Positions 1 through 62,251 of a stretch of 64,000 nt of DNA are shown piece after piece. This stretch comes from an uncultured bacterium. Its GTDB lineage: Bacteria; Patescibacteriota; Minisyncoccia; UBA6257; 2-01-FULL-56-20. The DNA is taken from NCBI GenBank assembly GCA_963725235.1, contig CAVRXN010000002.1, positions 94,964-158,963 on the forward strand, read 5' to 3'. A program made the position numbers and the translations under genes. The notes under the pieces are model-generated. The model saw only the letters and a list, made by a program, of their open reading frames with translations, was not told the DNA's origin and ran no database searches. Each line of letters begins with the position of its first letter. The stretch's first letter is position 1.

Positions 1-1438
1 AAAATGCTTGACTTCGTGCCGGAAGAGCGGCTCGACGACGTTATCTATTTCGATCCGTCGAACATGGAGCATCCGTTCGCATTCAATCCGATGGAGCAGG
101 TTGGCACCGAGTTCCGCCATCTCGTCGCGTCAGGCATCATGAGCGTTTTCAAGAAAATCTGGATCGACGCCTGGTCGGCGCGCATGGAATATATTTTAAA
201 CAACACCTTGCTCGCGCTCCTCGAATATCCTGATTCGACATTGCTCGGCATTTTGCGGATGTTTTCCGACAAAGATTATCGCAAAAAGATTGTAGACGGC
301 TTGCAACGATCCGGTCATCAAGGGGTTTTGGCAAAAAGAGTTCGCGAATTACTCCCAGCGGCTCGAATCCGAAGCGCTTGCCGCGATCCAGAACAAAGTC
401 GGGCAGTTCGTTTCGAATCCTTTGATCCGCAATATTTTGGGCCAGCCGCGTTCAACTTTGAATATGCGGCAAATTATGGACCAGGGGAAAATTTTTATCG
501 TCAATCTGTCGAAAGGTAAAATGGGTGAGGATAATTCTACGCTACTCGGCGCCATGATCATCACGCGCTTGCAGCTCGCCGCGATGTCGCGCGTCGATGT
601 GCCGGAGGAAAAACGCCGCGACTTTTTCATGTACGTCGACGAGTTCCAAAATTTCGCGACCGGATCTTTTGCAAGCATCCTGTCCGAGGCGCGCAAGTAT
701 CATTTGTCATTAACCCTCGCGCACCAATATATCGGTCAGTTGGTCGCGACCGACGGCAGCACGAAAGTGCGCGACGCCGTGTTTGGCAACGTCGGCACGA
801 TCATCACATTCCGCGTCGGCGCCGAAGATGCCGAATTCCTCGAGAAAGAATTCGTGCCCGAGTTCGAACCCCAGGATCTCGTGAATCTCGCGAAGGCGAA
901 CATATACATCAAGTTGATGATTGACGGCGTGACCACCCGCCCGTTCTCCGCCGAAACGTTGCCGCCGCAGCATACGCCGTTGCAAACCCATCGGGATGTC
1001 ATCATCCAGAATTCCCAGCAGCGATACGGTACACCGCGGCGCGTTGTCGAAGAAAAGATTGCGAGTGAATGGCTGCAGCGTTCGGACACGGCCGTTGAAG
1101 AAAAGATCGAACGTCGCGGCGAGCGGCGGCTGGGGGACGTTTTGCGGCGCGATGGCGAACCGACGCGAGAGAGTCCGCCGCGTCAAAGCCCGCCGGCTTC
1201 ATATCAATCTTCATCGTCGCCCAAGGCGACAGCATCACCGCGTCCTGCATATAACAAGACGGTGTCCATACCGCCCGTATCTGTCCCATCGGCATCGATT
1301 CCGCCCGAGCAAGCGCCGTTGCCCGCTGCGCCACACAAAAAATTCGTTCCGCAAAAATCCAATGTCGATATCGAAGCCCTGCGCCGCGCCATTAACGAAT
1401 CATTAAAAAAGCAGCAGGATAATGGCGGCGGCCAATGA
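1..1438 (+). CDS. Type IV secretion/conjugative coupling ATPase (VirD4/TraG/TraD family), C-terminal portion; 5'-partial at window edge, one frameshift near nt ~300 (ORFs 4..519 and 422..1438)
   Basis: Frame 2 reads ...GFWQKEFANYSQRLESEALAAIQNKV...KIFIVNLSKGKMGEDNSTLLGAMIITRLQLAAMSR...FFMYVDEFQNFATGSFASILSEARKYHLSLTLAHQYIGQL..., the DEFQNF / TraG-D_C style C-terminal module of coupling proteins. The frame switch falls at a G4T4/A5 homopolymer stretch. P/S-rich tail. Confidence 0.6.
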
Positions 1439-15706: not shown

Positions 15707-16336
15707 ATGGTTAAAAAACTGAAACGTGTAGAAGTCGAAGAAAAGCTCAAATCAGCAGGGCTGGCGGTTTTTACGCCTCGCGAATTTAAGGGTATTTTTA
15801 AGGTAGCGCCCGGGGCAGCTGCGGTATTCCTGTCTCATAACGTTGGCAAAGGCGGGATATTTATAAAGATTCGCAATGGATTTTACAAAATAAAAGATGC
15901 CCATACCTCGCGCTATCTGATAGCCAATAAGCTTTACGAACCTTCGTACATTTCTCTTTCGACGGCACTATCGCATTACGGCATCATCCCGGAAGTGGTA
16001 TATGCTACGACCTCCGTTACGGCCAAGTTATCACGGGAGTTTGAAACGCCGATAGGGAATTTTATCTATCAGCGGATCAAGCAGGCGGCATTCACTGGTT
16101 ATGGCTTACGGGCCATCGATCGCGAGAACGTCCTGATCGCTGAGCCGGAAAAAGCGCTTGCAGACTATCTTTATTTCGTCGACTTAAAGAAAGTGTCTTT
16201 GAATGATCGGCTTGAACTAAAAAATATAAAGAAATCTGTTTTACTTGGGTTCGTAAAGTTATTCGAAAGGCCAAGCATGATAAAGCTTATTGATCAAATT
16301 TATGTTGAATATAAAAAACCTCGAAAAATTTACTGA
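15707..16336 (+). CDS. abiEi: Type IV toxin-antitoxin system antitoxin AbiEi
   Basis: 209 aa; wHTH N-terminus plus an AbiEi_4-like C-terminus; the downstream toxin gene overlaps it by 47 nt. Confidence 0.7.
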   Translation: MVKKLKRVEVEEKLKSAGLAVFTPREFKGIFKVAPGAAAVFLSHNVGKGGIFIKIRNGFYKIKDAHTSRYLIANKLYEPSYISLSTALSHYGIIPEVVYATTSVTAKLSREFETPIGNFIYQRIKQAAFTGYGLRAIDRENVLIAEPEKALADYLYFVDLKKVSLNDRLELKNIKKSVLLGFVKLFERPSMIKLIDQIYVEYKKPRKIY

Positions 16337-17036
16337 TCGGTCGCAGACAACCCTGCAGAATGTTGTCAGGGAATATTGCCAGCATTTGTTTTTATCATAT
16401 CTCTATAAACAGCCTGGATCAGAACGCTTGCTGTTTAAGGGCGGTACTGCGCTTAGGATTATTTTTGAAAGTCCGCGTTTTTCGGAAGACCTCGATTTTA
16501 CGGGAATAAATATTCGCACCGCAGAGATCGAAAATATTTTTGGTGATGTGCTGGCGGCCATCGAGCATACGGGTGTCCGCGTTGACCTCCAGGAGGGAAA
16601 ACCAACTACGGGTGGCTATTTAGGTATCGCGACATTTCATACATACGGGAAAGCGACTCCTATCCAGATTGAGATATCGCTTCGGAATGGTAAACGAGTT
16701 GAAGGCGTACAATCGTTGATTGAAAATGAATATATTCCGGAATATACACTTATTCATTTACCGGAAGAAGATATCGTCAAGGGGAAAATCGAGGCGCTTA
16801 TCGCCCGCCACAAGCCACGCGATTTTTACGATTATTGGTTTCTTTTGCATGGAAATTATCCTCTTGCGAAAGAAAAGAAGAATTTGGAGGCGGTATCAGC
16901 GCTGTTGCGAAGTTCCAAAGTGAATTTCCGCGCCGAGCTCCGCGAGTTCCTGCCGGCAAGCCAGGCGCGGCTTTTGGGGGATTTTAAGAAAGTGCTCGAG
17001 GCAAAAATTGCAGATTTTTTGGGGAAGCGAATCTAG
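16290..17036 (+). CDS. abiEii: Nucleotidyltransferase toxin AbiEii/AbiGii (DUF1814)
   Basis: LFKGGTALRIIFESPRFSEDLDF (GSx10DxD NTase motif), 248 aa. Confidence 0.8.
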   Translation: MIKFMLNIKNLEKFTDRSQTTLQNVVREYCQHLFLSYLYKQPGSERLLFKGGTALRIIFESPRFSEDLDFTGINIRTAEIENIFGDVLAAIEHTGVRVDLQEGKPTTGGYLGIATFHTYGKATPIQIEISLRNGKRVEGVQSLIENEYIPEYTLIHLPEEDIVKGKIEALIARHKPRDFYDYWFLLHGNYPLAKEKKNLEAVSALLRSSKVNFRAELREFLPASQARLLGDFKKVLEAKIADFLGKRI

Positions 17037-33866: not shown

Positions 33867-40712
<6,846 letters not shown>

Positions 40713-47132: not shown

Positions 47133-48392
47133 TACGATTACCGGGCTGGGTTCGCCAACCAAGTCCGTGGGGTTTAACTCCCCAGGCCTCCACCGCGCTC
47201 AGAGCTTGGCTGTCTAGGTTCAGATACATATGAGACAGTTAGGTTTGTAAGATAACGACGTTTTTGGTTGGTAGTCCATTCGCTTTGATCTTGAGGGAAT
47301 ATTCGTTGGGCGTGAGCTGTCCCAGTGATTCATGCGGCCTCACCGTGTTCCAGATGTTCTCCCAGTCCCTGATCCTCCGCTGCATGACGGGTAACAGAGA
47401 AGATACGTTCCCTTGCTGGTAAAATTCGCGTTCATCGGCGCCATGTGACCGTTCGACGTAGGTGTTTTCCTTTGGAGTACGGGGATGGATAAAGTACTGC
47501 GTGATCGATCGCGCCTTACATGCCCGCTCGAATTCTTTCTGAAATGGCGCGCCATTGTCCGTCTGTATCGCCTCAATGGGATACGGGAATGACATCACGC
47601 ATTCCCCAAGGAATCGTGCGCCGCTCCGTGATGATTGCGACGGGTAGACTCTGAGTACGCGCCGCTTCGAAAGGACATCAATTGCGGTGAATTGGAAGAA
47701 TTTCCGTCCGCCGGGAAGCATGATGTATTTTGTATCCATCTGGATGAGCTGCCCTTCGTAGTGGATGCGCAATCCCCTGGGAAAACGAAGCTTGGGGCGC
47801 AACGCAGACTTCCGCTTCTTGCGTGAAACTTTCCGGTCAATGAGGCCTCTTCGTTTCAAGATCCTGCCGACCGTGCTCGCCGAGACGATGATTCCTTCAC
47901 GTTTGAGCATCACGGCAAGCTTGTATTTCGACCATGCCGGATATTGCTTGCGCAAGGCGACAGCCCGTGTGATGACTGGCCATGGCGTTGTTGGTTTGCG
48001 CAATCGTTTCGGTTTGCGCGAACGTTCATTCAAGCCGAGAACGCCCCGATCCGCACATCGTTCAAGCCAGCGGATGAGCGTCATGCGCCCGATGCCGAAA
48101 TGCCGGGCAGTGAGCGATTGGTTTTTCCCATGTGCCCGATGCCAGTCGAGAATCTTGATGCGACGCTTTGCCTGTTCAGTGAGTTTGTCTGCGAGGGCGG
48201 AAGATGCTGCGATACTCCCTGCCCCCGGAAGGAGGTTGCCGTATATGGTCATACGGCAACCCTGATATTTTCCTTTCATATTTTCAAGGGTCTGCTTGTA
48301 TCATATGTTATGGACCAGTACATTGGCTTGACATGGGTTGGGAGATTGATAAAATGTAGGCAAGGTTGGCGAACCCAGAATCGGTATCGTGC
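47133..48392 (-). mobile_element. IS481-family insertion sequence (single DDE transposase ORF) with imperfect terminal inverted repeats; boundaries approximate
   Basis: Left CGATTACCGGGCTGGGTTCGCCAACC (47137-47160) versus the reverse complement of right GGTTGGCGAACCCAGAATCGGTATCG (48363-48388). The 15-nt core CTGGGTTCGCCAACC is identical. Sits between divergent cmk and gatB. Confidence 0.6.
47239..48279 (-). CDS. IS481-family transposase (HTH + rve/DDE integrase core)
   Basis: N-terminal HTH (SLTARHFGIGRMTLIRWLER); catalytic core ...LIQMDTKYIM...FTAIDVLSKRRVL...IQTDNGAPFQ...RTPKENTYVERSH...; 346 aa, intact. Confidence 0.8.
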   Translation of the reverse strand: MKGKYQGCRMTIYGNLLPGAGSIAASSALADKLTEQAKRRIKILDWHRAHGKNQSLTARHFGIGRMTLIRWLERCADRGVLGLNERSRKPKRLRKPTTPWPVITRAVALRKQYPAWSKYKLAVMLKREGIIVSASTVGRILKRRGLIDRKVSRKKRKSALRPKLRFPRGLRIHYEGQLIQMDTKYIMLPGGRKFFQFTAIDVLSKRRVLRVYPSQSSRSGARFLGECVMSFPYPIEAIQTDNGAPFQKEFERACKARSITQYFIHPRTPKENTYVERSHGADEREFYQQGNVSSLLPVMQRRIRDWENIWNTVRPHESLGQLTPNEYSLKIKANGLPTKNVVILQT

Positions 48393-48462: not shown

Positions 48463-49918
48463 GTGCCATATATGGATTACCATCCCACCATCGGCCTCGA
48501 GGTTCACGCGGAGCTCAAGACGCGGACAAAAATGTTCTGCGATTCGCTGAATGATCCGGACGAGAAGCATCCGAACGTGAACGTCTGTCCGGTGTGTCTC
48601 GCGCATCCGGGGACGCTGCCCGTGCCGAACAAGCAGGCGATCGAGTATGTGTTGCGCGTCGGTCTCGCGACGGGCGGGACGCCGAACGCGCAGACGAAGT
48701 TCGACCGCAAAAATTATTTCTATCCCGACCTGCCGAAGGCATATCAGATTTCGCAGTCGGGCCAGCCGCTCGTGGCTGGTGGTATGCTACGCGATATAAA
48801 AATAAATCATATTCATCTCGAAGAGGATGCTGGTGCGCTCGCGCGACACGACGGAAGGATTTTCGCTCGTCGATTATAATCGCGCGGGTGTGCCGCTGAT
48901 GGAGCTTGTGACGGAGCCGGACATGCATACGGCTGAGGATGCGGTCGCATTCATGCGCGAGCTGCAGTTGGTCCTGCGCTATCTCGGCGTTTCGGATGCG
49001 GATCTCGAGCGCGGGCAGATGCGTGCGGATGCGAATATTTCGATTTCGCCAACGACTGGTGAGGGTGCGGGCAAACTTGGCACGCGCGCCGAAGTGAAAA
49101 ATTTAAACTCGTTCAATTCCGTCGCGCAGGCGATCAATTACGAGATTCGCCGGCAAACGGAATTGCTCGAGCGCGGCGAAACGGTTGCGCAGGAAACGCG
49201 CGGCTGGGATGATGCAAAACAGAAAACGACGTCGCAGCGCTCAAAGGAGGAGGCGCAGGATTATCGCTATTTCCCGGAGCCGGATATTCCGCCATTCGAT
49301 ACGAGTGTATTTGATATAGAGCGGTTGCGGGCGGAGTTGCCGGAATTGCCCGCCGCGCGGCGCACGCGGTTCGCCGCCGAATACGGACTCGATGCGAAGC
49401 AGACGGAGATTTTGGTAAGCGAGCCGGCGCTGGCAAACTTTTTTGAGGAAGCGGTGTCGGAGCTGCGCGAGCAGATGCCGGATGAGTCAGCGCCAAAATC
49501 CGCCGTCGCGACGCTCTATAATTATTTAACATCCGACCTGCGCGGGTTGATGAATGCCGGCGCGACAAATTTCGCGGATTTGAAAATCACGCCGGAACAT
49601 CTAGCGCATCTCGCCGCGCTCCTCGAAGCGAAGAAGCTGACGAGCCGCCAGGCGAAGGACATCCTCGCGAAAATGTTCGAGACCGGTGCCGATCCGACCG
49701 AGATCGTCGCGAGCGAGAACATCGGCGTCTCGGATGACAGTGCCGAGATCGAAGCAGTCGTCGCAGCCGTTATCGCCGAAAACAAATCAGCCGCCGACGA
49801 TTACCGCCGCGGCAAGACAGCCGTGTTGCAGTTCCTCATTGGCCAGGCCATGAAAGCTTTGAAAGGACGTGCGCGGCCGGAGGTGCTGAAGGAGATGCTT
49901 GAGAAGGGGCTGGGGTGA
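48463..49918 (+). CDS. gatB: Asp/Glu-tRNA amidotransferase subunit B, one frameshift near 48845
   Basis: MPYMDYHPTIGLEVHAELKTRTKMFCDS...NVCPVCLAHPGTLPVPN...HLEEDAG | ...TTEGFSLVDYNRAGVPLMELVTEPDMHTAEDA...; frame break in a GCGCTCGCGCG stretch. Confidence 0.85.
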
Positions 49919-49977
49919 TATAAAGAATAAAAATAGAATGGGCCACCGGATTTCCAGTGGCCCATGCGAAGGGCTGA

Positions 49978-53841: not shown

Positions 53842-54567
53842 ATGGAAAACGTCAAACCTTCGGCCGTCGAAGCACCGGCAGTAATCATCAGGCCGACCGG
53901 CTTGGATCGCGATTATTTCTCCGCCGATGACTGGCAGCAGTCACGCGGCGTTACGTTGACCGACGAGCAACGTGATCTGATGCCGAAAGTGCCATGGGAT
54001 AATGATTTACTCATGTCTCCGTGCCCGTTTGATAAGAAACAGAAGAAACGGATCGGGGAAACGCACTACGGCTTCATTGGATTCGCGAGCGTTGCAGGCG
54101 AAGGCGTCCCGAGCGAGATGGTGAACTTGCTCAAACTACAGCGACTGTATCCTGCGGATCAACAGCCAAAATTCGTTTCGTACGCTCCGGATTCCTGGTA
54201 TTCGCACCAGGATTTCGCAAACCTCATCGCGCTGGAGTTTTGCTACTATCTTCTCCTGCGCGAGATCGTTCCGCGTTCGAATGGCCTTGTGTTCACGGAG
54301 CAGCAAGCAATGCTGCCACCGGGATATAAAGTGCCTTCGGCAATCGCAGAAACCGCAAAGGACTTGTTCATTTATGACAAGCTCAAGGTTTACGTGAATC
54401 CAAGGCATTACGCGCGAACTGCCGATCTCGATTCGCATGGCTCTCGCGTGTACGTCGGCCATTGCGACGCGAACGGTGTCTTCATCAACCGCTGGTACGA
54501 CGACAGGCCGCGCGACGGCATCGGTGTCGGCGCTGCCCGGGAGTTCGAAACGAACCTTGCGGCTTGA
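53842..54567 (+). CDS. DGR target (variable) protein; the C-terminal ~38 codons are encoded by the variable repeat
   Basis: 241 aa; the C-terminus ...DSHGSRVYVGHCDANGVFINRWYDDRPRDGIGVGAAREFETNLAA overlaps VR. Confidence 0.75.
   Translation: MENVKPSAVEAPAVIIRPTGLDRDYFSADDWQQSRGVTLTDEQRDLMPKVPWDNDLLMSPCPFDKKQKKRIGETHYGFIGFASVAGEGVPSEMVNLLKLQRLYPADQQPKFVSYAPDSWYSHQDFANLIALEFCYYLLLREIVPRSNGLVFTEQQAMLPPGYKVPSAIAETAKDLFIYDKLKVYVNPRHYARTADLDSHGSRVYVGHCDANGVFINRWYDDRPRDGIGVGAAREFETNLAA
54425..54540 (+). repeat. DGR variable repeat (VR), 116 bp
   Basis: 101/116 identical to TR; all 15 differences are at positions where TR has A (VR has C/T/G). Confidence 0.85.
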
Positions 54568-54600
54568 GTCATCGATCCTTTTGTTTGCTTTTCTTCCCTT

Positions 54601-54639
54601 GGGCCTTCGGCGCATTTTTGCCGGAGGCCCTCTTTTTTG
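54601..54639 (+). terminator. GC-rich hairpin (GGGCCTTCGGCG-N9-GCCGGAGGCCC) + T-run, ~60 nt after VR: target-gene terminator and candidate DGR IMH-associated hairpin/cruciform
   Basis: 10-11-bp stem with one mismatch, followed by TCTTTTTTG. Confidence 0.5.
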
Positions 54640-54869
54640 AAAGACTAAAATATGCTAAAATATTTTTATCTTGCTCGTGCAGGTGCGACCATGGTTTCGC
54701 CTCGCAAGGTATCTCACCTGAGATTTCGCCAGCGTGCCGCCGTCTGTCTATTGATTGCGGCAGAGTGCGACGATGGATAGAGATCGAACTTCTTGCCTGC
54801 TTCTCGTATAAAAAATCAGGGACAAAGAACATTTTCCGAGTTCCGGTGAATCTGATGGCAGTGGGCAAT

Positions 54870-54985
54870 ATCTCGATTCGAATGGCAATCGCGTGAACGT
54901 CGGCAATTGCGACGCGAACGGTGTCAACATCAACAACTGGAACGACGACAAGCCGAACGACAACATCGGTGTCGGCGCTGCCCGG
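54870..54985 (+). repeat. DGR template repeat (TR), 116 bp, Asn-codon (AAC/AAT) rich
   Basis: Translates in the VR frame to ...NGNRVNVGNCDANGVNINNWNDDKPNDNIGVGAARQS*; lies in the intergenic region between the target gene and avd/RT. Confidence 0.85.
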
Positions 54986-54997
54986 CAGTCATGATCT

Positions 54998-55345
54998 CTA
55001 CTCCCGAATGGATTTAATCCAACCTCCGAGCATTCGACCGATCTCGTCGGTCATTTCTTCAAGTTTCAGGTATTTCTTCATATCGATAACTTTCGCATCT
55101 TTTGCGAGGCGGAAGAATACTCGGAGGAGATTAAGTTTTGTGCTGACCTGTTTCAAGACGGGAATTTTCTCGGATTTATAAAGTTCGCTCGCAGCGAGGA
55201 TCCCTTCTATAACATCGAGGATAGTTTTCTCGGCGCGTTCCCAAATCGTATGCCGATCTTGTTTATTAATTCCGTTCCGGTAGCCATGGAAAAGCTGATA
55301 GAGATCGTACGATTTTTTAAAAATTGGAATATCGAAATTATCCAT
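54998..55345 (-). CDS. avd: DGR accessory variability determinant (Avd; four-helix-bundle protein)
   Basis: MDNFDIPIFKKSYDLYQLFHGYRNGINKQDRHTIWERAEKTILDVIEGILAA...; 115 aa, basic, on the opposite strand between TR and RT. Confidence 0.75.
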   Translation of the reverse strand: MDNFDIPIFKKSYDLYQLFHGYRNGINKQDRHTIWERAEKTILDVIEGILAASELYKSEKIPVLKQVSTKLNLLRVFFRLAKDAKVIDMKKYLKLEEMTDEIGRMLGGWIKSIRE

Positions 55346-55352
55346 TTTATTT

Positions 55353-56404
55353 ATGAAGGTATATCGCGATGTTTTTGATAGGATTATTAGTGTGGAAAGT
55401 ATTTTTGCCGCTTGGGATCAGTTTAAGCAGGATAAAAAGAATAGATCGGATGTCGCGAAGTTTGAGCAAAAGCTCGAAGAGAATTTGTTCCAATTGTGCC
55501 GCGATCTCAAGAATAAAAACTATCGTCATGGACCATATTACGGCTTTTATATCCATGACCCAAAGCAACGTCACATTCATAAGGCCACCGTCCGAGATCG
55601 TATTTTGCATCATGCCATTTTTTCGATTTTGAGCCCGATGTTTGAAGAGATGTTTATCTCGACGTCGTTTTCCTGCCGAGTTGGATTTGGAACGCACAGA
55701 GGCGTCGATATGCTCGCGCAGATGATTCGCAGAGTTTCGAAAAATGGCAGCCAGCAATGTTACGTTTTGAAATGCGATATTAAAAAATTCTTCGATAGTG
55801 TTGACCACGAGATACTCCTTAGCATTTTGAATCGGAGGGTCAAAGATGAAGACGCGGTGTGGCTCTTGCGCGAAATCGTAAAAAGTTACGTAATTAAACG
55901 AGAGAGAGAGAGAGAGTTCAAAGCCAAATTCAAAAAACTGGCATTCCAATCGGCAATTTGACTTCCCAGCTGTTCGCGAATGTCTACATGAATGAGTTCG
56001 ATCAATTCATTAAGCATGGTTTGCATATAAAACATTATGCCCGTTATACCGATGATTTTGCAATAGTGGCTTCGAGCCACTCTGAGTTAAAAAATCTTAT
56101 CGAACCGATAGAGCAATTTCTCGAAAGTCATCTGAAATTACAACTTCATCCGAAGAAAATTTCGGTCCGAACTATAAATCATGGCATTGATTTTCTTGGC
56201 TATGTAATATTTCCAGGCCATCGTTTGATTCGCACAAAAACCCGCAGACGAATTTTTAAAAAGTTCAAATTGAAAGTTGAGGCATATCGTTTGGGCCACA
56301 TTTCCGAAGATTTTTTGATGGCATCGCTCCGATCATATCTTGGCGTTCTGTCTCATGCAGATACTTATCATCTTGCGGAAGAGTTGAAAAATGCGCTATT
56401 ATAG
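55353..56404 (+). CDS. DGR reverse transcriptase, frame broken inside a (GA)8 tract at 55900-55916
   Basis: RDRILHHAIFSILSPMFEEMFISTSFSCRVGFGTH (compare Bordetella Brt RDRLVQHALCNI...YACRPDKGTH); GIPIGNLTSQLFANVYMNEFD (DGR hallmark); YARYTDDFAIV (YxDD). Confidence 0.85.
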
Positions 56405-56408
56405 AGCC

Positions 56409-57725
56409 ATGCTCGATATTAAGTTCATCCGGGAAAACGCGGCTGCGGTGCGCGATGCGGCGACGAAGAAGAATCTGGATCCGAAGGTGATCGATGAGCT
56501 TTTGGCTGTCGATGAGACGCGGCGCGGATTGATGACCCAGCTCGAGATGGTGCGCGCAGCGCAGAAGAAGGCGACGAACCGCGAGGAGGGTACGCGGCTG
56601 AAAGAGGAGTATAAGAAGATCGAGGCAGAAGGTGACTTCGCCGGTATCGAGAAAAAATTCACCGAGCTGATGGCTCGCGTGCCAAATATTATTTCACCCG
56701 ACACGCCGGTCGGCAAAAGCGAGAATGAGAATAAGGAAGTGTTCAAATGGATCCCCGGCGGCGGCAGCGAACCGAAACAATTCGACTTCACCCCGAAGAC
56801 GCACATCGAGCTCGGCACCTCGCTCGACATCCTCGACTTCGATCGTGGAGCGAAAGTCGCCGGCTTCCGCGGATACTATGTAAAGAACGAAGGAGTTCTG
56901 CTCGTCATGGGCATGATGATGTACGCGGTGCAGAAAATGGTTGAAAAAGGTTTCATGCCGATGATCCCGCCGACACTCGTGAAACAATTTCCGTTGTTCG
57001 GCAGTGGATATTTCAAAGGAACTGAATACGACGCAGCGGTTGATGAGATATATAAAGTGGCGACTCCATCAACCGTGGCAGGTGATAGCGAGGACAAATT
57101 TTTAGTCGGTACATCCGAGCCCTCGCTCCTCGCATACTACGCGGACGAAATTTTGCGCGGCGAGCAGTTGCCGATGCGGCTCGCGGGCTACAGCCAGTGC
57201 TATCGGAGCGAGATCGGCAGTTATGGCCGCGACGTCAAAGGAATGTATCGCGTGCACGAGTTCCAAAAAGTGGAACAGGTCGTGCTCGCGCCGGCTGACA
57301 TCGAAGCGGCGAACAAGTTGCAGGATGAGATGGTCGCGATCTCGGGCGAGTTGCATCAGGATCTCGGCTTGCCATATCGCCGCCTCGCGATCTGCACAGG
57401 CGACTTAAGCGCCGGAAAATATCGTCAGTTCGACACCGAAGCGTGGCTGCCGGGCATGAAGCGCTGGGCCGAGACCGGTTCGGCGAGCAACTTCCTCGAC
57501 TGGCAATCGCGCCGGTTGAACGTTAAGTACACCGTGCCCGCGGGCGAGCCCGATGCCGACGGCGCCAAGCCGGGCGAGCGAAAGTTCGTATATATGTTAA
57601 ACAACACCGCGCTGCCCTCGCCGCGCATCTTCATTGCGATCTTGGAAAATTATCAAACCGCAGACGGCCGCGTTGAAGTGCCGGAAGTGCTACAGAGGTT
57701 CGTTGGGAAGAAGATGATTGGGTAA
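56409..57725 (+). CDS. serS: Seryl-tRNA synthetase
   Basis: MLDIKFIRENAAAVRDAATKKNLD (coiled-coil N-arm); class II motifs (...YSQCYRSEIGSYGRDVKGMYRVHEFQKVEQV...); C-terminus ...PEVLQRFVGKKMIG. Confidence 0.9.
   Translation: MLDIKFIRENAAAVRDAATKKNLDPKVIDELLAVDETRRGLMTQLEMVRAAQKKATNREEGTRLKEEYKKIEAEGDFAGIEKKFTELMARVPNIISPDTPVGKSENENKEVFKWIPGGGSEPKQFDFTPKTHIELGTSLDILDFDRGAKVAGFRGYYVKNEGVLLVMGMMMYAVQKMVEKGFMPMIPPTLVKQFPLFGSGYFKGTEYDAAVDEIYKVATPSTVAGDSEDKFLVGTSEPSLLAYYADEILRGEQLPMRLAGYSQCYRSEIGSYGRDVKGMYRVHEFQKVEQVVLAPADIEAANKLQDEMVAISGELHQDLGLPYRRLAICTGDLSAGKYRQFDTEAWLPGMKRWAETGSASNFLDWQSRRLNVKYTVPAGEPDADGAKPGERKFVYMLNNTALPSPRIFIAILENYQTADGRVEVPEVLQRFVGKKMIG
57677..57725 (+). repeat. Direct repeat copy 1 (serS 3' end), 49 bp, 42/49 identical to 59701..59749
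   Basis: GTGCCGGAAGTGCTACAGAGGTTCGTTGGGAAGAAGATGATTGGGTAAA. Confidence 0.7.
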
Positions 57726-57727
57726 AA

Positions 57728-58567
57728 ATGAACGAGACCGAAGTATACAATAAACTGCAAGATTGGGCTGAAAAGAACGAAAATATTCGAGCTATGGTTT
57801 TGACCAGTTCGAGGACTGCGAAGGATCCGAATGTTGATATTTTTTCCGATTATGACATCGAGTTTTACGTTAAAGACATGCGACAATTTCTTACGGACGA
57901 TTGGTTGTCATTCTTTGGTGATATTCTGATTAGATGGCCGTTAGAACCAATCATCGAGAACAACAACAATGTCACGCGTTTGGTGCTTTTTAATAACGAA
58001 GTAAGAATTGATTTTCAGATTACAGATAATGTAAAGATTGATGGAGCAAGATATGATAATGGATTCAAGGTTCTATTGGATAAGGATGGTATCGCGAAAG
58101 ACATAAAACTAGCAACTTATAGTCAATTCGTGGTTAAAAAACCAACGGAGAAAGAATTTATTGAACTCATAAACGACTTTTTCTGGGACGGAACTTATGT
58201 TGCAAAAAATCTCTGGAGAGATGAACTTTACTACGCCAAGTATATGATGGATAGTGTTATACGTTTTGAATATCTGCAAAAAGTAATTGAATGGTATATA
58301 GGAGTCGACCATGATTGGTCAGTCAATACAAATAAGTATGGGAGATTTTTCAAGCGATATCTCGATGAGGCACTATGGAAAGAGTTAGAGTCGACTTTCA
58401 GTGGAGCAAGCATAGAAGAAAACTGGAATGCCTTTTTTAATATGGTTACTCTTTTTAGCAAGTTAGCAAAAGAGATAGCTGCTAAATTAAATTATAATTA
58501 TCCATTAGACATTGAAACTAAAGCAGTTAAATACTATAAGAAAGTTAGAGGATTGGAAGGGAAATAA
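57728..58567 (+). CDS. aadK: Aminoglycoside 6-nucleotidyltransferase ANT(6) / AadK-AadE family (streptomycin adenylyltransferase), low-GC
   Basis: ENIRAMVLTSSRT...DIFSDYDIEFYV, FKVLLDKDGI, KPTEKEFIELINDFFWDGTYVAKNLWRDELYYAKYMMDSVIRFEYLQKVIEWYIG, KYGRFFKRYLDEALWKELESTFS; collinear with B. subtilis AadK. ATG is 2 nt after the serS stop. Confidence 0.8.
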   Translation: MNETEVYNKLQDWAEKNENIRAMVLTSSRTAKDPNVDIFSDYDIEFYVKDMRQFLTDDWLSFFGDILIRWPLEPIIENNNNVTRLVLFNNEVRIDFQITDNVKIDGARYDNGFKVLLDKDGIAKDIKLATYSQFVVKKPTEKEFIELINDFFWDGTYVAKNLWRDELYYAKYMMDSVIRFEYLQKVIEWYIGVDHDWSVNTNKYGRFFKRYLDEALWKELESTFSGASIEENWNAFFNMVTLFSKLAKEIAAKLNYNYPLDIETKAVKYYKKVRGLEGK

Positions 58568-58715
58568 ACGATATTCAGTTGGGTTGTGTCTTTAGCAGTT
58601 TATAGGCCAATATCGGCCATTTTTCTTATCATAAACTCCAAAGATTAAAAAATTATTAAAAAAGATTTGCATTGTATTTTGAGGGCAGTATGATTGATAG
58701 AAACATAATAAAAAC

Positions 58716-59699
58716 ATGACAAAAAAGAAAAATATAAAGCAGGAAATTGTTATTTATCAGGGCAAAAATGGTGCGATTGAGTTGCGTGGTGATTTTTCGC
58801 GGGAAACGCTTTGGGCAACCTTGCAGCAAATTGCCGATCTTTTTGACACGGATAAATCGGGCATTTCCCGCCATATCAAAAGCATATACGAAAGCGGAGA
58901 ATTGCCTCGGGAGGGAACTGTTGCAAAAAATGCAACAGTTCGAAAGGAAAGCACAAGGGACGTATTTCGTCAAGTCGAATACTATAATTTAGACCTCATT
59001 TTATCGGTCGGATATCGTATTAACTCGCAAAAGGCGACAATTTTCCGCCGCTGGGCAACAGAAGTCCTTCGCCGCCATATCACCGAGGGTTACACAATAA
59101 ATAAAAAGCTCATCGTCAAGAATTACGACGCATTTCTGAAGGCAGTGGAAGAAGTGAAGTCATTACTTCCCGAAGGTAACCTGATCGCTGCTGGCGATGC
59201 GTTGGAATTGGTGAAAATGTTCGCGTCGACATGGTTCGCGCTCAATGCGTACGACAAAGAGGAGCTGCCAATGTCGGGAGCGACGCACAAACAAGTTGCG
59301 TTCACCGGAGAAGAGCTGGCGAAAGCAATCGGCAAATTGCGCGAAGAGCTGGCCTCGAAAGACGAAATCGGGCTTTTCGGTATTGAACGAAACGAAAAAA
59401 GCATTGCGGGGATCGTCGGCAATATTTTCCAATCGTTTGGCGGAAAGGATCTCTATCCGACCGTCGAAGAAAAAGCGGCACATCTTTTATATTTCATCGT
59501 AAAGAATCATCCATTCGCCGATGGCAACAAGCGGTCGGGTGCGTTTGCGTTTGTCTGGTTTTTGAACAGTGCGAAGCTGCTCAACCCGGCGCGCTTTTCG
59601 CCGGAAGCTCTCACGGCGCTCACGTTATTGGTCGCCGAAAGCAAATCGACCGACAAAGATAGGATCGTTGGATTGGTATTGCTGTTGCTGAAAAAATAA
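58716..59699 (+). CDS. RhuM-family virulence protein with a C-terminal Fic/Doc domain
   Basis: N-terminal KilA-N/RhuM-like (IVIYQGKNGAIELRGDFSRETLWATLQQIADLF...YYNLDLILSVGYRINSQKATIFRRWATEVL); C-terminal HPFADGNKRSGAFAFVWFL (Fic/Doc HPFx[DE]GN[GK]R). Confidence 0.75.
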   Translation: MTKKKNIKQEIVIYQGKNGAIELRGDFSRETLWATLQQIADLFDTDKSGISRHIKSIYESGELPREGTVAKNATVRKESTRDVFRQVEYYNLDLILSVGYRINSQKATIFRRWATEVLRRHITEGYTINKKLIVKNYDAFLKAVEEVKSLLPEGNLIAAGDALELVKMFASTWFALNAYDKEELPMSGATHKQVAFTGEELAKAIGKLREELASKDEIGLFGIERNEKSIAGIVGNIFQSFGGKDLYPTVEEKAAHLLYFIVKNHPFADGNKRSGAFAFVWFLNSAKLLNPARFSPEALTALTLLVAESKSTDKDRIVGLVLLLLKK

Positions 59700-59700
59700 T

Positions 59701-59749
59701 CGCGCCGGAGGTGCTGCAGAAGTTTGTGGGGAAGAAGGTGATTGGGTAA
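59701..59749 (+). repeat. Direct repeat copy 2 (displaced, diverged serS 3' end remnant encoding PEVLQKFVGKKVIG*)
   Basis: GCGCCGGAGGTGCTGCAGAAGTTTGTGGGGAAGAAGGTGATTGGGTAAA. Confidence 0.7.
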
Positions 59750-60350
59750 AGTTGCTTTTTATTCTTGTTTATTTTATAACCAAAGCAGAGAAAGGCGGTT
59801 TATTCTCGATTTACAATTTGGAACGTTGCTTCGCAGGACTGATGTAGTTGTTAACGCAGAAGAAGGAGATTTAGGGCACGCGCTCGACAAGATTATCGGC
59901 TGTACTCTTTTCGTGTGGAGTTTAAACGGAGAGGGCATGAAAGGAATTGTTGTAGATTGTGACTCCGACGAAGTGAATCATGTTGGGGAAGAATACGGAG
60001 CCAATCGTCGCTTTCTCCAGGATGAAACTTACTTTTGTATCTACCAACACCCCGAAGGCGATCTCTACGACTGTGATTGCTGTCGAATCGACATAGGCAT
60101 ACTTCACACTGTGTGGCTTCTCGAAGACGGGTCGGGAAGAGTTCGCGATTTAAGTTTCGAAGCATTGCAGCGTACAGGAAAACATATCTTAACTCCTGGG
60201 CCGCATTGGCAGAGGGCAATTGCGTGCCAGTCCTGTGCAACTCGAGATCTCAGGATGTCTCGGCAGTATGGACGGAAGTCTCCACTATAAAAAGGATTTA
60301 AGCAGATGTTTAACTATCGGCGCCCACTGTATTAGCTGTGGCGCCTTTTT

Positions 60351-61367
60351 TTACACCTCCATCACCCACTCTTTGTACTTCTCATCTTCACCCAGCTGCA
60401 CTTTTCGATATTGTTCCGCTATTTGTTTCGTTAACTGACCAGACGCCCCGGCTGAAGCCCCGCTCCCAATCATCCTCTTATCCACCGACAACACCGGAAT
60501 GAGCCGCGCGGAACTGCCGCACAAAAACATTTCATCGGCGATGTAGAGTTCGCTACGATCGACGGTGCGTTCGACGACGTGGACGCCGAGGTCGCGCGCG
60601 ATCTGGATGATGCTGGCGCGCGTAATGCCTTCGAGGAGATCGGAGCTTGCGGAGGGCGTTATCAATTTTGGGCCGGAGCCGGCTGCGCCAGCGCCAGCGC
60701 CATCGGAGCCGGCGCGAACGAGAAAAATATTCGAGACGGTTCCTTCGGTGACATGGCCGTCGGCGTCGAGAACGATCGCGTCGTCGTAGCCGTTCAAGAT
60801 CGCTTCATTTTTTATCAACGACGCGTTCGCGTAGCCGCCGTTCACTTTCGCGCGCGAGGGGATTGCGTTGTCGGGGTTGCGCGTCCAGCTCGAAACGCAG
60901 AGATTGACGCCGTCGCGCGGCAAGATCGAACCCATTGGGTAGACATAGGCGGACAGCGAGTGTTTCAGGCCGTGGATTTTTGTTCCGGCGATCAGCTCGT
61001 CGACGAAGATCGTGACGCGGATTAACACATCCTCGGCGAGCGGTTTATCAGCCGGTGAATTCCGCCGCAACAACTCCAGCATCGTCGCCTCGAACTTTTC
61101 ATAGGGCCACGCAGCCGCGAAGTTATTGAAGTCCATAATCTTCGCGGAATTTACGAGCCGCGTGTAATGGTCGCGCAGGCGGAATAATAACAATTTGCCC
61201 GCGCCCGCGCCGCCATCCGTTGCTGGCTTCCAATTCGCCGCAAAGACCGTATAGACCGATAAGCCATACAAAACAGGGGACGACGCGATGCTGACGTTCG
61301 CCTGCGAGAACGGGACGAAGCCGTCACGGAAAAACGCCTGGCCGGATGTGTAATCGAATGAGGACAT
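60351..61367 (-). CDS. ilvE: Branched-chain-amino-acid / class IV (fold type IV PLP) aminotransferase
   Basis: ...YGLSVYTVFAA..., ...EAILNGYDDAIVLDADGHVTEGTVSNIFLVR..., ...LEGITRASIIQIARDLG...; Gly/Ala-rich insert AGSDGAGAGAAGSGP. Confidence 0.75.
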   Translation of the reverse strand: MSSFDYTSGQAFFRDGFVPFSQANVSIASSPVLYGLSVYTVFAANWKPATDGGAGAGKLLLFRLRDHYTRLVNSAKIMDFNNFAAAWPYEKFEATMLELLRRNSPADKPLAEDVLIRVTIFVDELIAGTKIHGLKHSLSAYVYPMGSILPRDGVNLCVSSWTRNPDNAIPSRAKVNGGYANASLIKNEAILNGYDDAIVLDADGHVTEGTVSNIFLVRAGSDGAGAGAAGSGPKLITPSASSDLLEGITRASIIQIARDLGVHVVERTVDRSELYIADEMFLCGSSARLIPVLSVDKRMIGSGASAGASGQLTKQIAEQYRKVQLGEDEKYKEWVMEV

Positions 61368-61402: not shown

Positions 61403-62209
61403 ATGCAAATCGACCGCTACGTCGCCGACCGTCGCCGCCGGCAAAAAAAGCGCAAGAAATATTTTTGGGCCATCGCCGGATTTCTCGCGGTATATTTCAT
61501 CGCGTTCGGCATTTTTTATCTGATCGTCCGCTCGCCGGCGTTTCAGGCAGAGAAAATAACCGTCGAAGGCAACAGCGCCGTCTCGACGCCGGAAATTATG
61601 GATCTCCTCCATTCGAGCATCATCCGAACCGGCGCGTCGATCGACAAACCGAACAGCGGCCTCGCCGCCATGCTCGGATTTAATAGTTTATTCATCTGGC
61701 CGCGCGCATTGCCATCGTCAACCGTCGCCACGATTCCCCAGCTCGCCGGCGTGACGATCGCCAAAAATTATTTCCTGCACACGATAACCGTGACTGTCAC
61801 CGAGCGCCAACCGTTCGCCGTCTGGTGCGTGATGCCCGATGATGATTGCTACTGGTTTGACAACACCGGCATCGCGTTCGAACGCACGCTCGATACCGAA
61901 GGCGGTGCGATCGATGTCATCCATGACTATTCGTCGTCGACGGCCGACAACGCAACAATCGCGATCGGCGAACCCGTCCTTGCTCCCGAGTTTATGCCGA
62001 ACCTCATCTCGATCCTAAAGGCGCTCCAGCAAAGCGGCGTCGGCGTGTCCGACATTTCGCTGCAAAATATTTCGCTGCAGCAGATAAATGTGACGACCAC
62101 CGAGGGCCCAATGCTCTACTTCAGCTTACGTTTCCCGGCGGACAGCGATATGCCGGTCCTGCAAAGCTTGATCGCAGAAACCCGGCTTCGACAATTTACA
62201 GTACATTGA
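61403..62209 (+). CDS. ftsQ: Cell division protein FtsQ/DivIB-like (TM + POTRA)
   Basis: Basic N-terminus, TM helix (FWAIAGFLAVYFIAFGIFYLIV), POTRA-like AEKITVEGNSAVSTPEIMDLL. Confidence 0.55.
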   Translation: MQIDRYVADRRRRQKKRKKYFWAIAGFLAVYFIAFGIFYLIVRSPAFQAEKITVEGNSAVSTPEIMDLLHSSIIRTGASIDKPNSGLAAMLGFNSLFIWPRALPSSTVATIPQLAGVTIAKNYFLHTITVTVTERQPFAVWCVMPDDDCYWFDNTGIAFERTLDTEGGAIDVIHDYSSSTADNATIAIGEPVLAPEFMPNLISILKALQQSGVGVSDISLQNISLQQINVTTTEGPMLYFSLRFPADSDMPVLQSLIAETRLRQFTVH

Positions 62210-62251
62210 TTTCACGGTCCAAAATCGTGCATACTATAAATAGTAAATATC

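What the first reader, a model, noticed from the sequence alone, without database searches (positions are those of the whole stretch)
57677..59749. ~2-kb low-GC islet (ANT(6) aminoglycoside nucleotidyltransferase + RhuM/Doc-Fic protein) inserted at the 3' end of serS, flanked by diverged 49-bp direct repeats
The last 49 nt of serS, including the stop codon, recur at 59701-59749 with 42/49 identity, encoding PEVLQKFVGKKVIG* versus PEVLQRFVGKKMIG*. This is the classic footprint of an integrative element that targets a gene's 3' end and supplies a replacement terminus. Between the copies lie an AT-rich aadK/aadE-family ANT(6) gene, whose ATG is 2 nt after the serS stop and so is read-through or translationally coupled, and a 327-aa RhuM-family protein with an HPFADGNKR Fic/Doc motif. 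No integrase lies between the repeats, so the islet is either degenerate or mobilised in trans. An aminoglycoside-resistance determinant in a CPR-like genome is uncommon. It is also odd that the islet sits immediately 3' of the DGR RT/serS.
Basis: partly seen in the sequence, partly recalled or inferred. Interest (0 to 1): 0.65.

Follow-up and report, generated by a model that had tools for sequence, protein, structure and literature searches.

The report
Two-gene accessory islet after serS
A 2-kb piece of foreign DNA carrying a streptomycin-adenylyltransferase-like gene and a RhuM–Doc toxin-like gene sits right behind the essential serS gene of a CPR bacterium, bracketed by two slightly different copies of the last 47 bases of serS; it is an ordinary kind of small genomic islet in an unusual host and target site.

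Summary
The last 47 nt of serS (57680-57726) recur at 59704-59750 with 41/47 identity. Nothing else in the 64 kb comes within 12 mismatches. Between the copies lie an intact PF04439 ANT(6)-family gene, with the lowest GC in the window (0.35), and an intact RhuM–Doc gene that matches PADLOC candidate defence family PDC-S23 over its full length.

About 96 related Patescibacteria serS loci lack both genes and lack a second serS end. In the closest relatives the gap between convergent serS and an ilvE-like aminotransferase holds different cargo each time, including the SoFic defence gene. So this is a hypervariable accessory slot.

The downstream copy encodes the C-terminus conserved in the closest relatives, and matches the nearest relative at 45/47 nt. 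The in-frame copy has two unique substitutions. That fits an incoming DNA that supplied a replacement terminus through a single crossover.

No integrase, same-lineage empty site, free attP copy or excision junction was found, so site-specific mobility is unproven. Homology-facilitated illegitimate recombination remains a serious rival.

Streptomycin resistance is not established: 42.6% identity to AadS, below NCBIfam cut-offs. The adjacent DGR is a separate insertion.

Verdict: a new member of a known kind, of modest interest.

The parts
56409..57725 (+). serS (seryl-tRNA synthetase, 438 aa), the target gene. Its last 46 nt plus one base form the left repeat.
   Evidence: PF02403 plus PF00587. 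It is 87% identical to L097 and 79-80% to L095 and L081, full length with no frameshift.
57680..57726 (+). Left direct repeat (attL-like). This is the in-frame serS terminus, PEVLQRFVGKKMIG*, with two substitutions (R, M) seen in no relative.
57728..58567 (+). ANT(6)-family nucleotidyltransferase (279 aa) of the AadS-like branch. Its ATG is 2 nt after the serS stop and no terminator lies between them. GC 0.35.
   Evidence: PF04439 E 8e-78. NCBIfam AadS 270.7 bits against a cut-off of 450. PDB 8vxb at 6e-39 and 2pbe at 8.5e-35. D37, D41, D43 and D95 are invariant in 120 homologues. 42.6% identical to plasmid AadS.
58568..58715 (+). AT-rich spacer (GC 0.29). It holds a weak hairpin plus U-tract around 58604-58625 and a promoter-like TTTGCA-17-TATGAT at 58666-58694, ahead of the RhuM-Doc gene.
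   Evidence: hairpin z -2.4. These are consensus matches only.
58716..59699 (+). RhuM/Fic/DOC fusion protein (327 aa) with a Doc-type motif, HPFADGNKR. Candidate anti-phage or toxin gene (PADLOC PDC-S23).
   Evidence: PF13310 plus PF02661. PDC-S23 at 4e-107 over the full length. Doc family chain 9vzc. More than 7,900 homologues, many in Patescibacteria.
59704..59750 (+). Right direct repeat (attR-like), a non-coding remnant of a serS 3' end. It encodes the clade-consensus PEVLQKFVGKKVIG* and begins 4 nt after the RhuM-Doc stop.
   Evidence: 45/47 to L097, 43/47 to L095 and to L092.
59751..60350 (+). Remainder of the lineage-specific slot. It contains an orphan Cys-rich ORF (59937-60290, 117 aa from the internal ATG) and an intrinsic-terminator-like hairpin at 60319-60345 followed by U7.
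   Evidence: No Pfam, NCBIfam or PADLOC hit and no homologue. Hairpin -15.8 kcal/mol, z -3.3. Homology to relatives resumes only at the aminotransferase stop.
60351..61367 (-). Class IV (ilvE-like) aminotransferase, convergent with serS. It marks the conserved right border of the variable slot.
   Evidence: PF01063. NCBIfam ilvE-type hits below cut-off. Orthologues at 69-76% in L081, L092, L095 and L097.

Best explanation
The segment 57727-59750 (2,024 bp: ANT(6), spacer, RhuM-Doc and one repeat copy) is horizontally acquired DNA. It entered the extreme 3' end of serS by one reciprocal crossover of the Campbell type. The crossover joined the chromosomal serS terminus to a 47-nt serS-terminus homologue carried on the incoming, probably circular, DNA.

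The crossover left serS intact with a slightly foreign terminus. It pushed the old terminus 2 kb downstream, where it survives as a non-coding remnant.

The insertion landed in a slot between convergent serS and an ilvE-like gene. Close relatives fill this slot with different accessory genes.

ANT(6) has no promoter or spacer of its own. It is most likely expressed by read-through and termination-reinitiation from serS. RhuM-Doc has its own AT-rich, promoter-like leader. The whole unit ends at the hairpin-U7 at 60319-60352.

The recombinase is not encoded in the islet. It was either supplied in trans, as for a CIME-like or mobilisable islet, or the event was RecA-mediated.

Shown: the repeat, the gene identities, the absence of the insert from relatives, the variability of the slot, and the similarity of the remnant to relatives' termini.

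Inferred: a circular intermediate, the single crossover, the direction (which copy is native), the expression mode, and the functions of both cargo genes (streptomycin-type adenylylation; Doc-type phosphorylation of a translation factor as a toxin or abortive-infection effector).
For: - The repeat is unique in the window and far beyond chance.
- The mismatches are mostly synonymous. Both copies keep the reading frame and TAA. So both derive from functional serS termini of different lineages, not from one duplicated sequence that decayed.
- The downstream copy matches relatives' termini better than the in-frame copy does: L097 45 against 42, L095 43 against 40, L092 43 against 37, each out of 47. 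Its peptide is identical in six relatives. R and M in the in-frame copy occur in none of about 96 serS sequences.
- None of about 96 related loci has ANT(6), RhuM-Doc or a second serS end.
- The slot content differs in each close relative: a 186-aa membrane ORF in L097, a 139-aa ORF in L095 and L092, and SoFic in L081. Many others have serS directly followed by ftsQ.
- ANT(6) has the lowest GC in the window, so the acquisition is foreign and probably recent.
- A second assembly shows the same structure.
- The gene junctions are tight: 2 nt on the left and 4 nt on the right. The repeat is therefore the only non-coding sequence available as a recombination site.
Against: - No integrase or resolvase was found in the islet or among ten candidate ORFs in the window.
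- No empty site from the same species was found. The orphan ORF that would mark one has no homologue.
- All six metagenomic matches to the terminus pattern are ordinary serS ends. None is a free attP copy, and none is in viral contigs.
- The in-frame copy's 42/47 identity to L097 equals the 87-89% identity of the neighbouring serS sequence, so it could simply be native. The downstream copy's 45/47 is only marginally unusual (p about 0.07).
- ANT(6) (GC 0.35) and RhuM-Doc (GC 0.47) have different compositions, so the 'element' may be composite.
- RhuM-Doc genes elsewhere in CPR are solitary and carry no common flanking sequence.
Confidence: 0.5

Rival explanations
1. The remnant is a by-product of homology-facilitated illegitimate recombination, or of flank-mediated slot replacement. 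Under this reading there is no dedicated attachment site. DNA from a related Paceibacterota genome recombined through homology in serS or in the aminotransferase gene. Its other end joined illegitimately 47 nt before a serS stop, so that a fragment of one serS terminus was stranded inside the slot. Either segment could be the newcomer: ANT(6) plus RhuM-Doc, or remnant plus orf117.
For: - The slot turns over completely between close relatives, with borders exactly at the serS stop and the aminotransferase stop. This is the pattern expected for exchange through flanking core-gene homology.
- No recombinase or free att copy was found.
- The in-frame terminus is as similar to L097 as the rest of serS is.
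- No other serS locus shows a duplicated terminus, so the site is not used recurrently.
Against: - The repeat's right end coincides exactly with the gene end (stop plus 1 nt) in both copies. The left end is sharp, and the cargo is packed to within 2-4 nt. That is neater than a random illegitimate join would usually be.
- No elevated-divergence tract is visible in serS just upstream of 57680, relative to L097. The comparator is only 87% identical, however.
Confidence: 0.33
2. Local duplication followed by divergence. A 47-nt duplication of the host's own serS end arose at insertion, as a long target-site duplication or by replication slippage. The two copies have since diverged by 13%.
For: Both copies share F at the Y/F position, as do the closest relatives, so both come from the same narrow clade.
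Against: - 13% divergence implies a long residence, yet ANT(6) is still 17 GC points below the genome and is intact.
- A non-coding remnant decaying neutrally should not keep its frame, its stop codon and the clade-consensus peptide, or stay closer to orthologues than the selected copy does.
- No known transposition mechanism makes 47-bp target duplications (established knowledge).
Confidence: 0.07
3. Assembly artefact: a chimeric join of two populations at the shared serS terminus.
For: The window shows many split housekeeping genes, which suggests an indel-prone assembly.
Against: - An independent Logan assembly (6.9 kb) spans serS, both repeats, both genes and the downstream core genes at 99.84% identity.
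- The repeats differ at 6 of 47 positions, and both junctions lie inside one contig in both assemblies.
Confidence: 0.02
4. The repeat is a product of the neighbouring diversity-generating retroelement, that is, a VR/TR-like pair.
For: A functional-looking DGR lies immediately upstream of serS.
Against: - The real VR/TR pair is 54425-54544 and 54870-54989, and every mismatch there falls at a TR adenine.
- The serS repeat mismatches are A/G, A/G, G/A, C/T, T/G and A/G, which is not adenine-specific.
- The repeat is 2.7 kb from the TR and brackets foreign genes.
Confidence: 0.01

Closest known systems
CIMEs and mobilisable genomic islets at the 3' end of protein-coding genes. Examples, recalled from memory and not tested here: the CIME elements derived from ICESt1/ICESt3 at the 3' end of fda in Streptococcus thermophilus, and SCCmec at the 3' end of rlmH/orfX.
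   Same: - Small cargo-only DNA bracketed by imperfect direct repeats that duplicate the last codons of a housekeeping gene.
- The gene stays intact because the element supplies a replacement end.
- No recombinase inside the element.
   Different: - No cognate integrase-bearing element or second att-carrying partner was found.
- The host is a Patescibacteria (CPR) genome and the target is serS. I found no example of this target in the loci or papers searched here, which was not a literature survey of integration sites.
- The unit is only 2.0 kb.
- Mobility is not shown.
Core-gene-flanked hotspots for defence and accessory genes (integration hotspots without integrases). The concept is recalled from the literature.
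   Same: - The interval between conserved serS and ilvE-like/ftsQ genes carries different cargo in each close relative.
- That cargo includes the validated defence gene SoFic and a PADLOC candidate.
   Different: This locus additionally preserves a duplicated gene terminus, a physical scar of one insertion event. Hotspots usually lack such a scar.
AadS / ANT(6) aminoglycoside 6-adenylyltransferases (PF04439; NCBIfam NF033387; PDB 8vxb, 2pbe)
   Same: - Full-length domain match.
- All residues invariant in the subfamily are present, including the DxD pair and the third carboxylate.
   Different: - Only 42.6% identical to AadS, and 270 bits against the equivalog cut-off of 450.
- The nearest relatives (59-68%) are unnamed metagenomic proteins in unrelated contexts.
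- Substrate and resistance phenotype are untested.
RhuM/Fic/DOC fusion proteins (PADLOC PDC-S23). RhuM was proposed as a toxin domain often fused to DOC (PMC3710099).
   Same: - Same two-domain architecture over the full length.
- Doc-type HxFx(D)GNKR motif.
- 60-70% identical to thousands of homologues, many in Patescibacteria and often beside restriction-modification, Fic or MazE genes.
   Different: Nothing distinctive in the protein itself. Only its position, inside a repeat-bounded islet at serS, is unusual.

Membership tests
Site-specific integrative element targeting a gene 3' end | Direct repeats (attL/attR) that duplicate the 3' end of the target gene and keep it intact | tested here: met
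   47 nt, 41/47 identical; serS is full length.
Site-specific integrative element targeting a gene 3' end | A tyrosine or serine recombinase encoded within the element | tested here: not met
   Only two ORFs lie between the repeats, both assigned to other families. None of the ten candidate window ORFs tested is a tyrosine or serine recombinase; one rve transposase lies at 47239-48279.
Site-specific integrative element targeting a gene 3' end | An unoccupied site in related genomes, with the flanks joined through a single att copy | tested here: inconclusive
   All relatives lack the insert and have a single terminus. However, the sequence downstream of the terminus differs in every lineage, so no exact empty site exists. 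No same-species variant was found.
Site-specific integrative element targeting a gene 3' end | An excised circular form or attP junction, or recurrence of the same att-bounded unit elsewhere | tested here: inconclusive
   No free copy of the terminus pattern occurs in metagenome or viral contigs. Raw reads could not be examined.
CIME / trans-mobilised islet | att-flanked cargo without a recombinase, plus a cognate integrase-bearing element that uses the same att site | tested here: inconclusive
   The first half is met. No cognate element was detected in the window, in about 100 loci or in the viral collection.
Integron gene cassette | An attC site (imperfect palindrome that folds as single-stranded DNA, with R/L boxes and GTTRRRY) at the cassette boundary | tested here: not met
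   The repeats do not fold better than shuffles (z +1.0 and +1.3). No GTTRRRY core occurs at the junctions.
DGR variable/template repeat pair | Mismatches confined to adenines of the template copy | tested here: not met
   C/T and T/G mismatches are present. The true VR/TR pair lies at 54425-54989.
ANT(6) aminoglycoside 6-adenylyltransferase (PF04439) | Full-length domain with the nucleotidyltransferase carboxylates | tested here: met
   E 8e-78 over 2-272 of 279 aa. D41, D43 and D95 are invariant in 120/120 homologues. The 'SS' in place of 'GS' is the majority state of this branch, 102/120.
ANT(6) aminoglycoside 6-adenylyltransferase (PF04439) | Equivalog-level similarity to a characterised resistance enzyme (NCBIfam cut-off) | tested here: not met
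   AadS 270.7 against 450; ANT_6 174 against 420; AadK 123 against 600. 42.6% identity to AadS.
ANT(6) aminoglycoside 6-adenylyltransferase (PF04439) | Streptomycin adenylylation or a resistance phenotype | not testable with these tools
   This needs expression and MIC or enzyme assays.
RhuM/Fic/DOC (PADLOC PDC-S23) | N-terminal RhuM domain plus C-terminal Fic/Doc domain with an HxFx(D/N)(A/G)NKR motif | tested here: met
   PF13310 over 68-141 and PF02661 over 219-283. HPFADGNKR is present. PDC-S23 matches at 4e-107 over 8-326.
RhuM/Fic/DOC (PADLOC PDC-S23) | Anti-phage or toxin activity | not testable with these tools
   PDC systems are candidates only; no paper mentioning PDC-S23 was found. 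The toxin role of RhuM is a published proposal (PMC3710099).

The most novel reading that the evidence does not exclude
The 2,024-bp unit is a minimal, recombinase-free, circularisable two-gene cassette. Its only non-coding feature is a 47-nt mimic of the serS terminus. An unidentified recombinase supplied in trans, by the CPR host or a helper element, would insert it so that promoterless cargo is fused to the transcript of an essential gene. That would be a cassette system for defence and resistance genes in ultra-small genomes. The repeat-separated accessory modules seen in L090 might be a related phenomenon.
Probability: 0.1. Interest if true: 0.65.

Novelty: new member of a known kind. Interest (0 to 1): 0.33.

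Why it matters
Mechanisms of gene gain in CPR/Patescibacteria are poorly documented, because these genomes are tiny, uncultured and carry few recognisable mobile elements. This locus preserves a clean physical scar of one acquisition event next to an essential gene. It also shows that the serS-downstream gap is a turnover slot for defence-type genes (SoFic in one relative, RhuM-Doc here). If the islet proves mobile, it would point to a trans-acting integration system in CPR. If the ANT(6) homologue is active, it would be a divergent streptomycin-modifying enzyme wired to serS expression. As it stands, this is a tidy example of a familiar pattern and not a new principle.

Tried and rejected
- Same-species empty site. 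Exact-protein look-ups of ANT(6), RhuM-Doc and the aminotransferase found only the source contig and one Logan contig of the same strain.
- orf117 as a marker of the ancestral arrangement. It has no homologue at all.
- Free attP or other copies of the terminus. The back-translated 45-nt pattern gave six metagenome contigs, all ordinary serS ends, and no viral contig.
- Phage or plasmid carriage. There are no close ANT(6) or RhuM-Doc relatives in IMG/VR. One 126-nt phage match lies inside the Doc domain. Plasmid hits reach at most 42.6% identity.
- Functional pairing of the two cargo genes. Neither gene's homologues have the other as a neighbour, so I treat them as independent cargo.
- A general 'repeat-flanked RhuM-Doc islet'. 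L090's 29-nt flanking repeat turned out to be a four-copy dispersed element. The repeat in L102-L105 is terminator-like. L087, L088 and L098 have none. Nothing is conserved up- or downstream of the gene.
- Other duplicated gene termini. A self-BLAST of 107 sequences found none at serS elsewhere. The L049 hit is a low-complexity intergenic repeat.
- Donor tract inside serS. The sliding identity against L097 and L095 shows no step at 57680.
- Rfam families, tRNA genes, an integron attC-like fold and a DGR origin for the repeat were all negative.


Full report
**Observation.** The window contains a 47-nt direct repeat, 57680-57726 and 59704-59750, 41/47 identical. No other 47-mer in the 64 kb lies within 12 mismatches of it. 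The expected number of such pairs by chance is about 2e-8. Identity collapses to chance level immediately outside both ends.

The left copy is the in-frame end of serS, including TAA and one further base. It encodes PEVLQRFVGKKMIG*. The right copy is non-coding and would encode PEVLQKFVGKKVIG*. Four of the six differences are third-codon positions. The other two are conservative replacements, R/K and M/V.

An independent short-read assembly from Logan run ERR11523662 (L001) covers serS, both repeats, both cargo genes and the downstream core genes at 99.84% identity. Its only differences lie far downstream. The structure is therefore not a misassembly.

**Cargo: the ANT(6) homologue.** ORF 57728-58567 is a full-length PF04439 protein (E 8e-78). 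Its nearest solved structures are ANT(6)-Ib (8vxb, 6e-39) and AadK (2pbe). In an alignment with 119 homologues the carboxylates D41, D43 and D95, and also D37, are invariant. The 'SS' that replaces the canonical 'GS' is the majority state of this branch (102 of 120).

It is nevertheless not an equivalog of any characterised enzyme. It scores 270.7 bits against the AadS model cut-off of 450 and is 42.6% identical to plasmid-borne AadS. Its closest relatives (59-68%) are unnamed metagenomic proteins in unrelated neighbourhoods: a SusD/TonB locus, a glycosidase locus, and an M23-peptidase contig on which the homologue carries an in-frame TAG. Its GC content (0.35) is the lowest in the window, whose mean is 0.523 with sd 0.047.

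**Cargo: the RhuM-Doc protein.** ORF 58716-59699 combines PF13310 (RhuM) and PF02661 (Fic/Doc). It has the Doc-type motif HPFADGNKR. It matches the PADLOC candidate single-gene defence family PDC-S23 end to end (4e-107). Its only PDB sequence match is a death-on-curing protein.

The family is very large, with more than 7,900 proteins at E below 1e-30. It is well conserved (60-70% identity) and frequent in Patescibacteria. RhuM has been proposed as a toxin domain often fused to DOC in restriction-modification neighbourhoods (PMC3710099). In the other CPR contigs I examined the gene is solitary. It sits among housekeeping genes or beside type I or HinfI restriction-modification, other Fic genes or MazE, never with ANT(6). 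The GC of this gene (0.47) is much closer to the host's. The two cargo genes probably have different histories.

**Expression signals.** These are consensus matches and inference only. No terminator separates serS from ANT(6), and the ATG is 2 nt past the stop. A weak hairpin with a U-tract follows ANT(6). A TTTGCA-17-TATGAT motif precedes RhuM-Doc. The only strong terminator-like hairpin, followed by U7, is at 60319-60352, at the end of the slot.

**Genomic context.** The genome belongs to the Patescibacteria. The related serS loci carry titles such as Paceibacterota, Parcubacteria and Minisyncoccia. Across about 96 related loci the backbone is thrS (-), serS (+), then ftsQ. It is often direct, or with D-amino-acid or cell-wall genes between serS and ftsQ (alanine racemase, glutamate racemase, class IV aminotransferase).

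None of these loci has ANT(6), RhuM-Doc, orf117 or a second serS terminus. The closest relatives share the window's arrangement of serS, a gap, then the convergent aminotransferase and ftsQ. The gap holds something different each time:
- L097 (serS 87% identical): a 186-aa membrane ORF.
- L095 and L092 (79% and 77%): a 139-aa ORF on the minus strand.
- L081 (80%): a full-length SoFic defence protein (PADLOC 1.7e-114).

Nucleotide homology between the window and L097 stops at the serS stop and resumes at the aminotransferase stop. So 57727-60350 is a lineage-specific accessory slot, and the serS remnant divides it in two. One part is ANT(6) plus RhuM-Doc. The other is an orphan ORF with the terminator. 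That ORF has no homologue in 5.8 billion proteins.

**Which copy is native?** The remnant's peptide is identical to the serS C-terminus of six relatives. The R and M of the in-frame copy occur in none of the serS sequences collected. At the nucleotide level the remnant is closer than the in-frame copy to every near relative: L097 45 against 42, L095 43 against 40, and L092 43 against 37, each out of 47.

The case is not closed. The in-frame copy's 89% identity to L097 equals that of the adjacent serS sequence (87-89%). The remnant's 45/47 is only marginally above expectation (p about 0.07).

If the remnant is native, the distribution of variable positions hints at a crossover between repeat positions 8 and 12. 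Position 7 of the in-frame copy agrees with L097, while positions 13-35 of the remnant do. This rests on one comparator and is weak.

**Mechanism.** A single reciprocal crossover between the chromosomal serS end and a 47-nt homologue on a circular DNA reproduces every feature:
- the two chimeric repeats;
- an intact serS;
- cargo packed to within 2 nt and 4 nt of the repeats;
- a unit length of 2,024 bp.

The 13% divergence between the copies, together with the unameliorated GC of ANT(6) and the preserved frame, stop and consensus peptide of the non-coding copy, argues that the copies were already different when joined. That speaks against a target-site duplication that later diverged.

What is missing is everything that would show site-specific mobility:
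- No tyrosine or serine recombinase lies in the islet or among ten candidate ORFs elsewhere in the window. One rve transposase lies at 47239-48279.
- No same-species empty site was found.
- No free copy of the terminus pattern was found. All six metagenome matches are ordinary serS ends, and there are no viral matches.
- The repeat does not fold like an integron attC site.

The main rival is therefore homology-facilitated illegitimate recombination, or flank-mediated slot exchange. Under that reading the stranded terminus is a passenger scar and not an attachment site. The complete turnover of the slot at fixed borders in close relatives suits that view.

I put the Campbell-type insertion at about 0.5, the illegitimate or flank-mediated route at about 0.33, and duplication followed by divergence at about 0.07. 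The remaining tenth is split between the two minor rivals (assembly artefact and DGR origin, about 0.03 together) and possibilities I have not considered.

**Relation to the DGR.** A genuine DGR lies between thrS and serS. The VR at 54425-54544 and the TR at 54870-54989 differ only at TR adenines. The Avd gene scores 76.9 bits against NF033474, just under the family cut-off of 80. The RT is split by a frameshift near a (GA)8/A6 tract.

Relatives have thrS and serS adjacent, so the DGR is a second, separate insertion on the other side of serS. The serS repeat mismatches include C/T and T/G, so the repeat is not a DGR product.

**Comparison with known systems.** The islet works like a cargo-only islet at the 3' end of a housekeeping gene. 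The CIME elements at fda and SCCmec at rlmH are examples I recall from the literature and did not test here. It fails the membership tests that need a recombinase or a demonstrated cognate element.

The slot behaves like the integrase-free, core-gene-flanked hotspots described for defence genes. ANT(6) is a divergent member of PF04439. RhuM-Doc is a typical member of its family. Aminoglycoside-modifying-enzyme-like genes, adenylyltransferases included, have already been reported across CPR genomes (PMC8651080), so the presence of one here is not in itself surprising.

**Verdict.** This is a new member of a known kind: a small repeat-bounded accessory islet in a variable slot. The host group, the serS target and the unusually clean scar are notable, but there is no evidence of a new mechanism. 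Interest 0.33.

Noticed in passing
window 53842-56404: A complete diversity-generating retroelement lies between thrS and serS. The target gene orf241 has its VR at 54425-54544. The TR is at 54870-54989, and every mismatch falls at a TR adenine. Avd (54998-55345) is on the minus strand. The RT is at 55353-56404. Relatives have thrS and serS adjacent, so the DGR is itself an insertion.
   Followed up: partly
window ~55897-55960: The DGR reverse transcriptase is split into two ORFs (55353-55961 and 55958-56404) by a frameshift in or near a (GA)8 run and an A6 run. This could be a real inactivation or phase switch, or an assembly indel. The Logan contig starts inside the GA run and cannot settle the question.
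   Followed up: partly
window 7708-10055, 33959-39374, 48463-49918: Several housekeeping genes appear broken into adjacent ORFs: clpB, what look by eye like rpoB/rpoC fragments, and gatB. This suggests an indel-prone assembly. The window also differs from L001 by three indels at 62170-62250 that change the ftsQ end.
   Followed up: no
L081 713-1843: One of the closest relatives with sequenced flanks carries a full-length SoFic defence gene (PADLOC 1.7e-114; Fic_N plus Fic) in the same slot, immediately downstream of serS. Fic-family defence genes therefore recur at this position.
   Followed up: partly
L090 5885-5910, 7907-7932, 9487-9512, 10905-10930: In another CPR contig, four copies of a conserved element of about 30 nt (TGCTGGAYGMAATCCGAAYSTGGTTT) separate successive 1.4-2 kb accessory modules. 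One module holds a RhuM-Doc gene and another a second Fic gene. The layout resembles a cassette array. The element is absent from the window and from the other 105 loci.
   Followed up: partly
L102-L105 (e.g. L102 2216-2251, 4235-4270, 6551-6586): A near-identical 36-nt terminator-like hairpin repeat brackets the module that contains RhuM-Doc. The module lies in a Moranbacteria-type contig next to a HinfI restriction-modification system and MazE.
   Followed up: no
window 15707-17036: A low-GC (0.42-0.44) gene pair. The second gene is an AbiEii nucleotidyltransferase toxin (PF08843, 6.7e-26), so this looks like an AbiE-type toxin-antitoxin or abortive-infection module.
   Followed up: no
window 47239-48279 (-) and 422-1438 (+): An rve-family (DDE) transposase with HTH domains, and a TraG/VirD4-like coupling-protein fragment. 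These are further signs of mobile DNA in this small genome.
   Followed up: no
window 59937-60290: A Cys-rich 117-aa ORF between the serS remnant and the terminator. It has no family hit and no homologue in 5.8 billion proteins. It may be an orphan gene or non-coding.
   Followed up: partly
L082 1082-1915: The closest ANT(6) homologue (68%) has an in-frame TAG at codon 13 where the window protein has Trp. It sits behind its own terminator and promoter region next to an M23 peptidase. Unlike the window copy, it is not fused to an upstream gene.
   Followed up: no
window 49876-49922: The 3' end of gatB (…PEVLKEMLEKGLG*) shares its first 13 nt (GCCGGAGGTGCTG) with the right serS repeat. This is probably a chance consequence of the shared PEVL peptide.
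   Followed up: no
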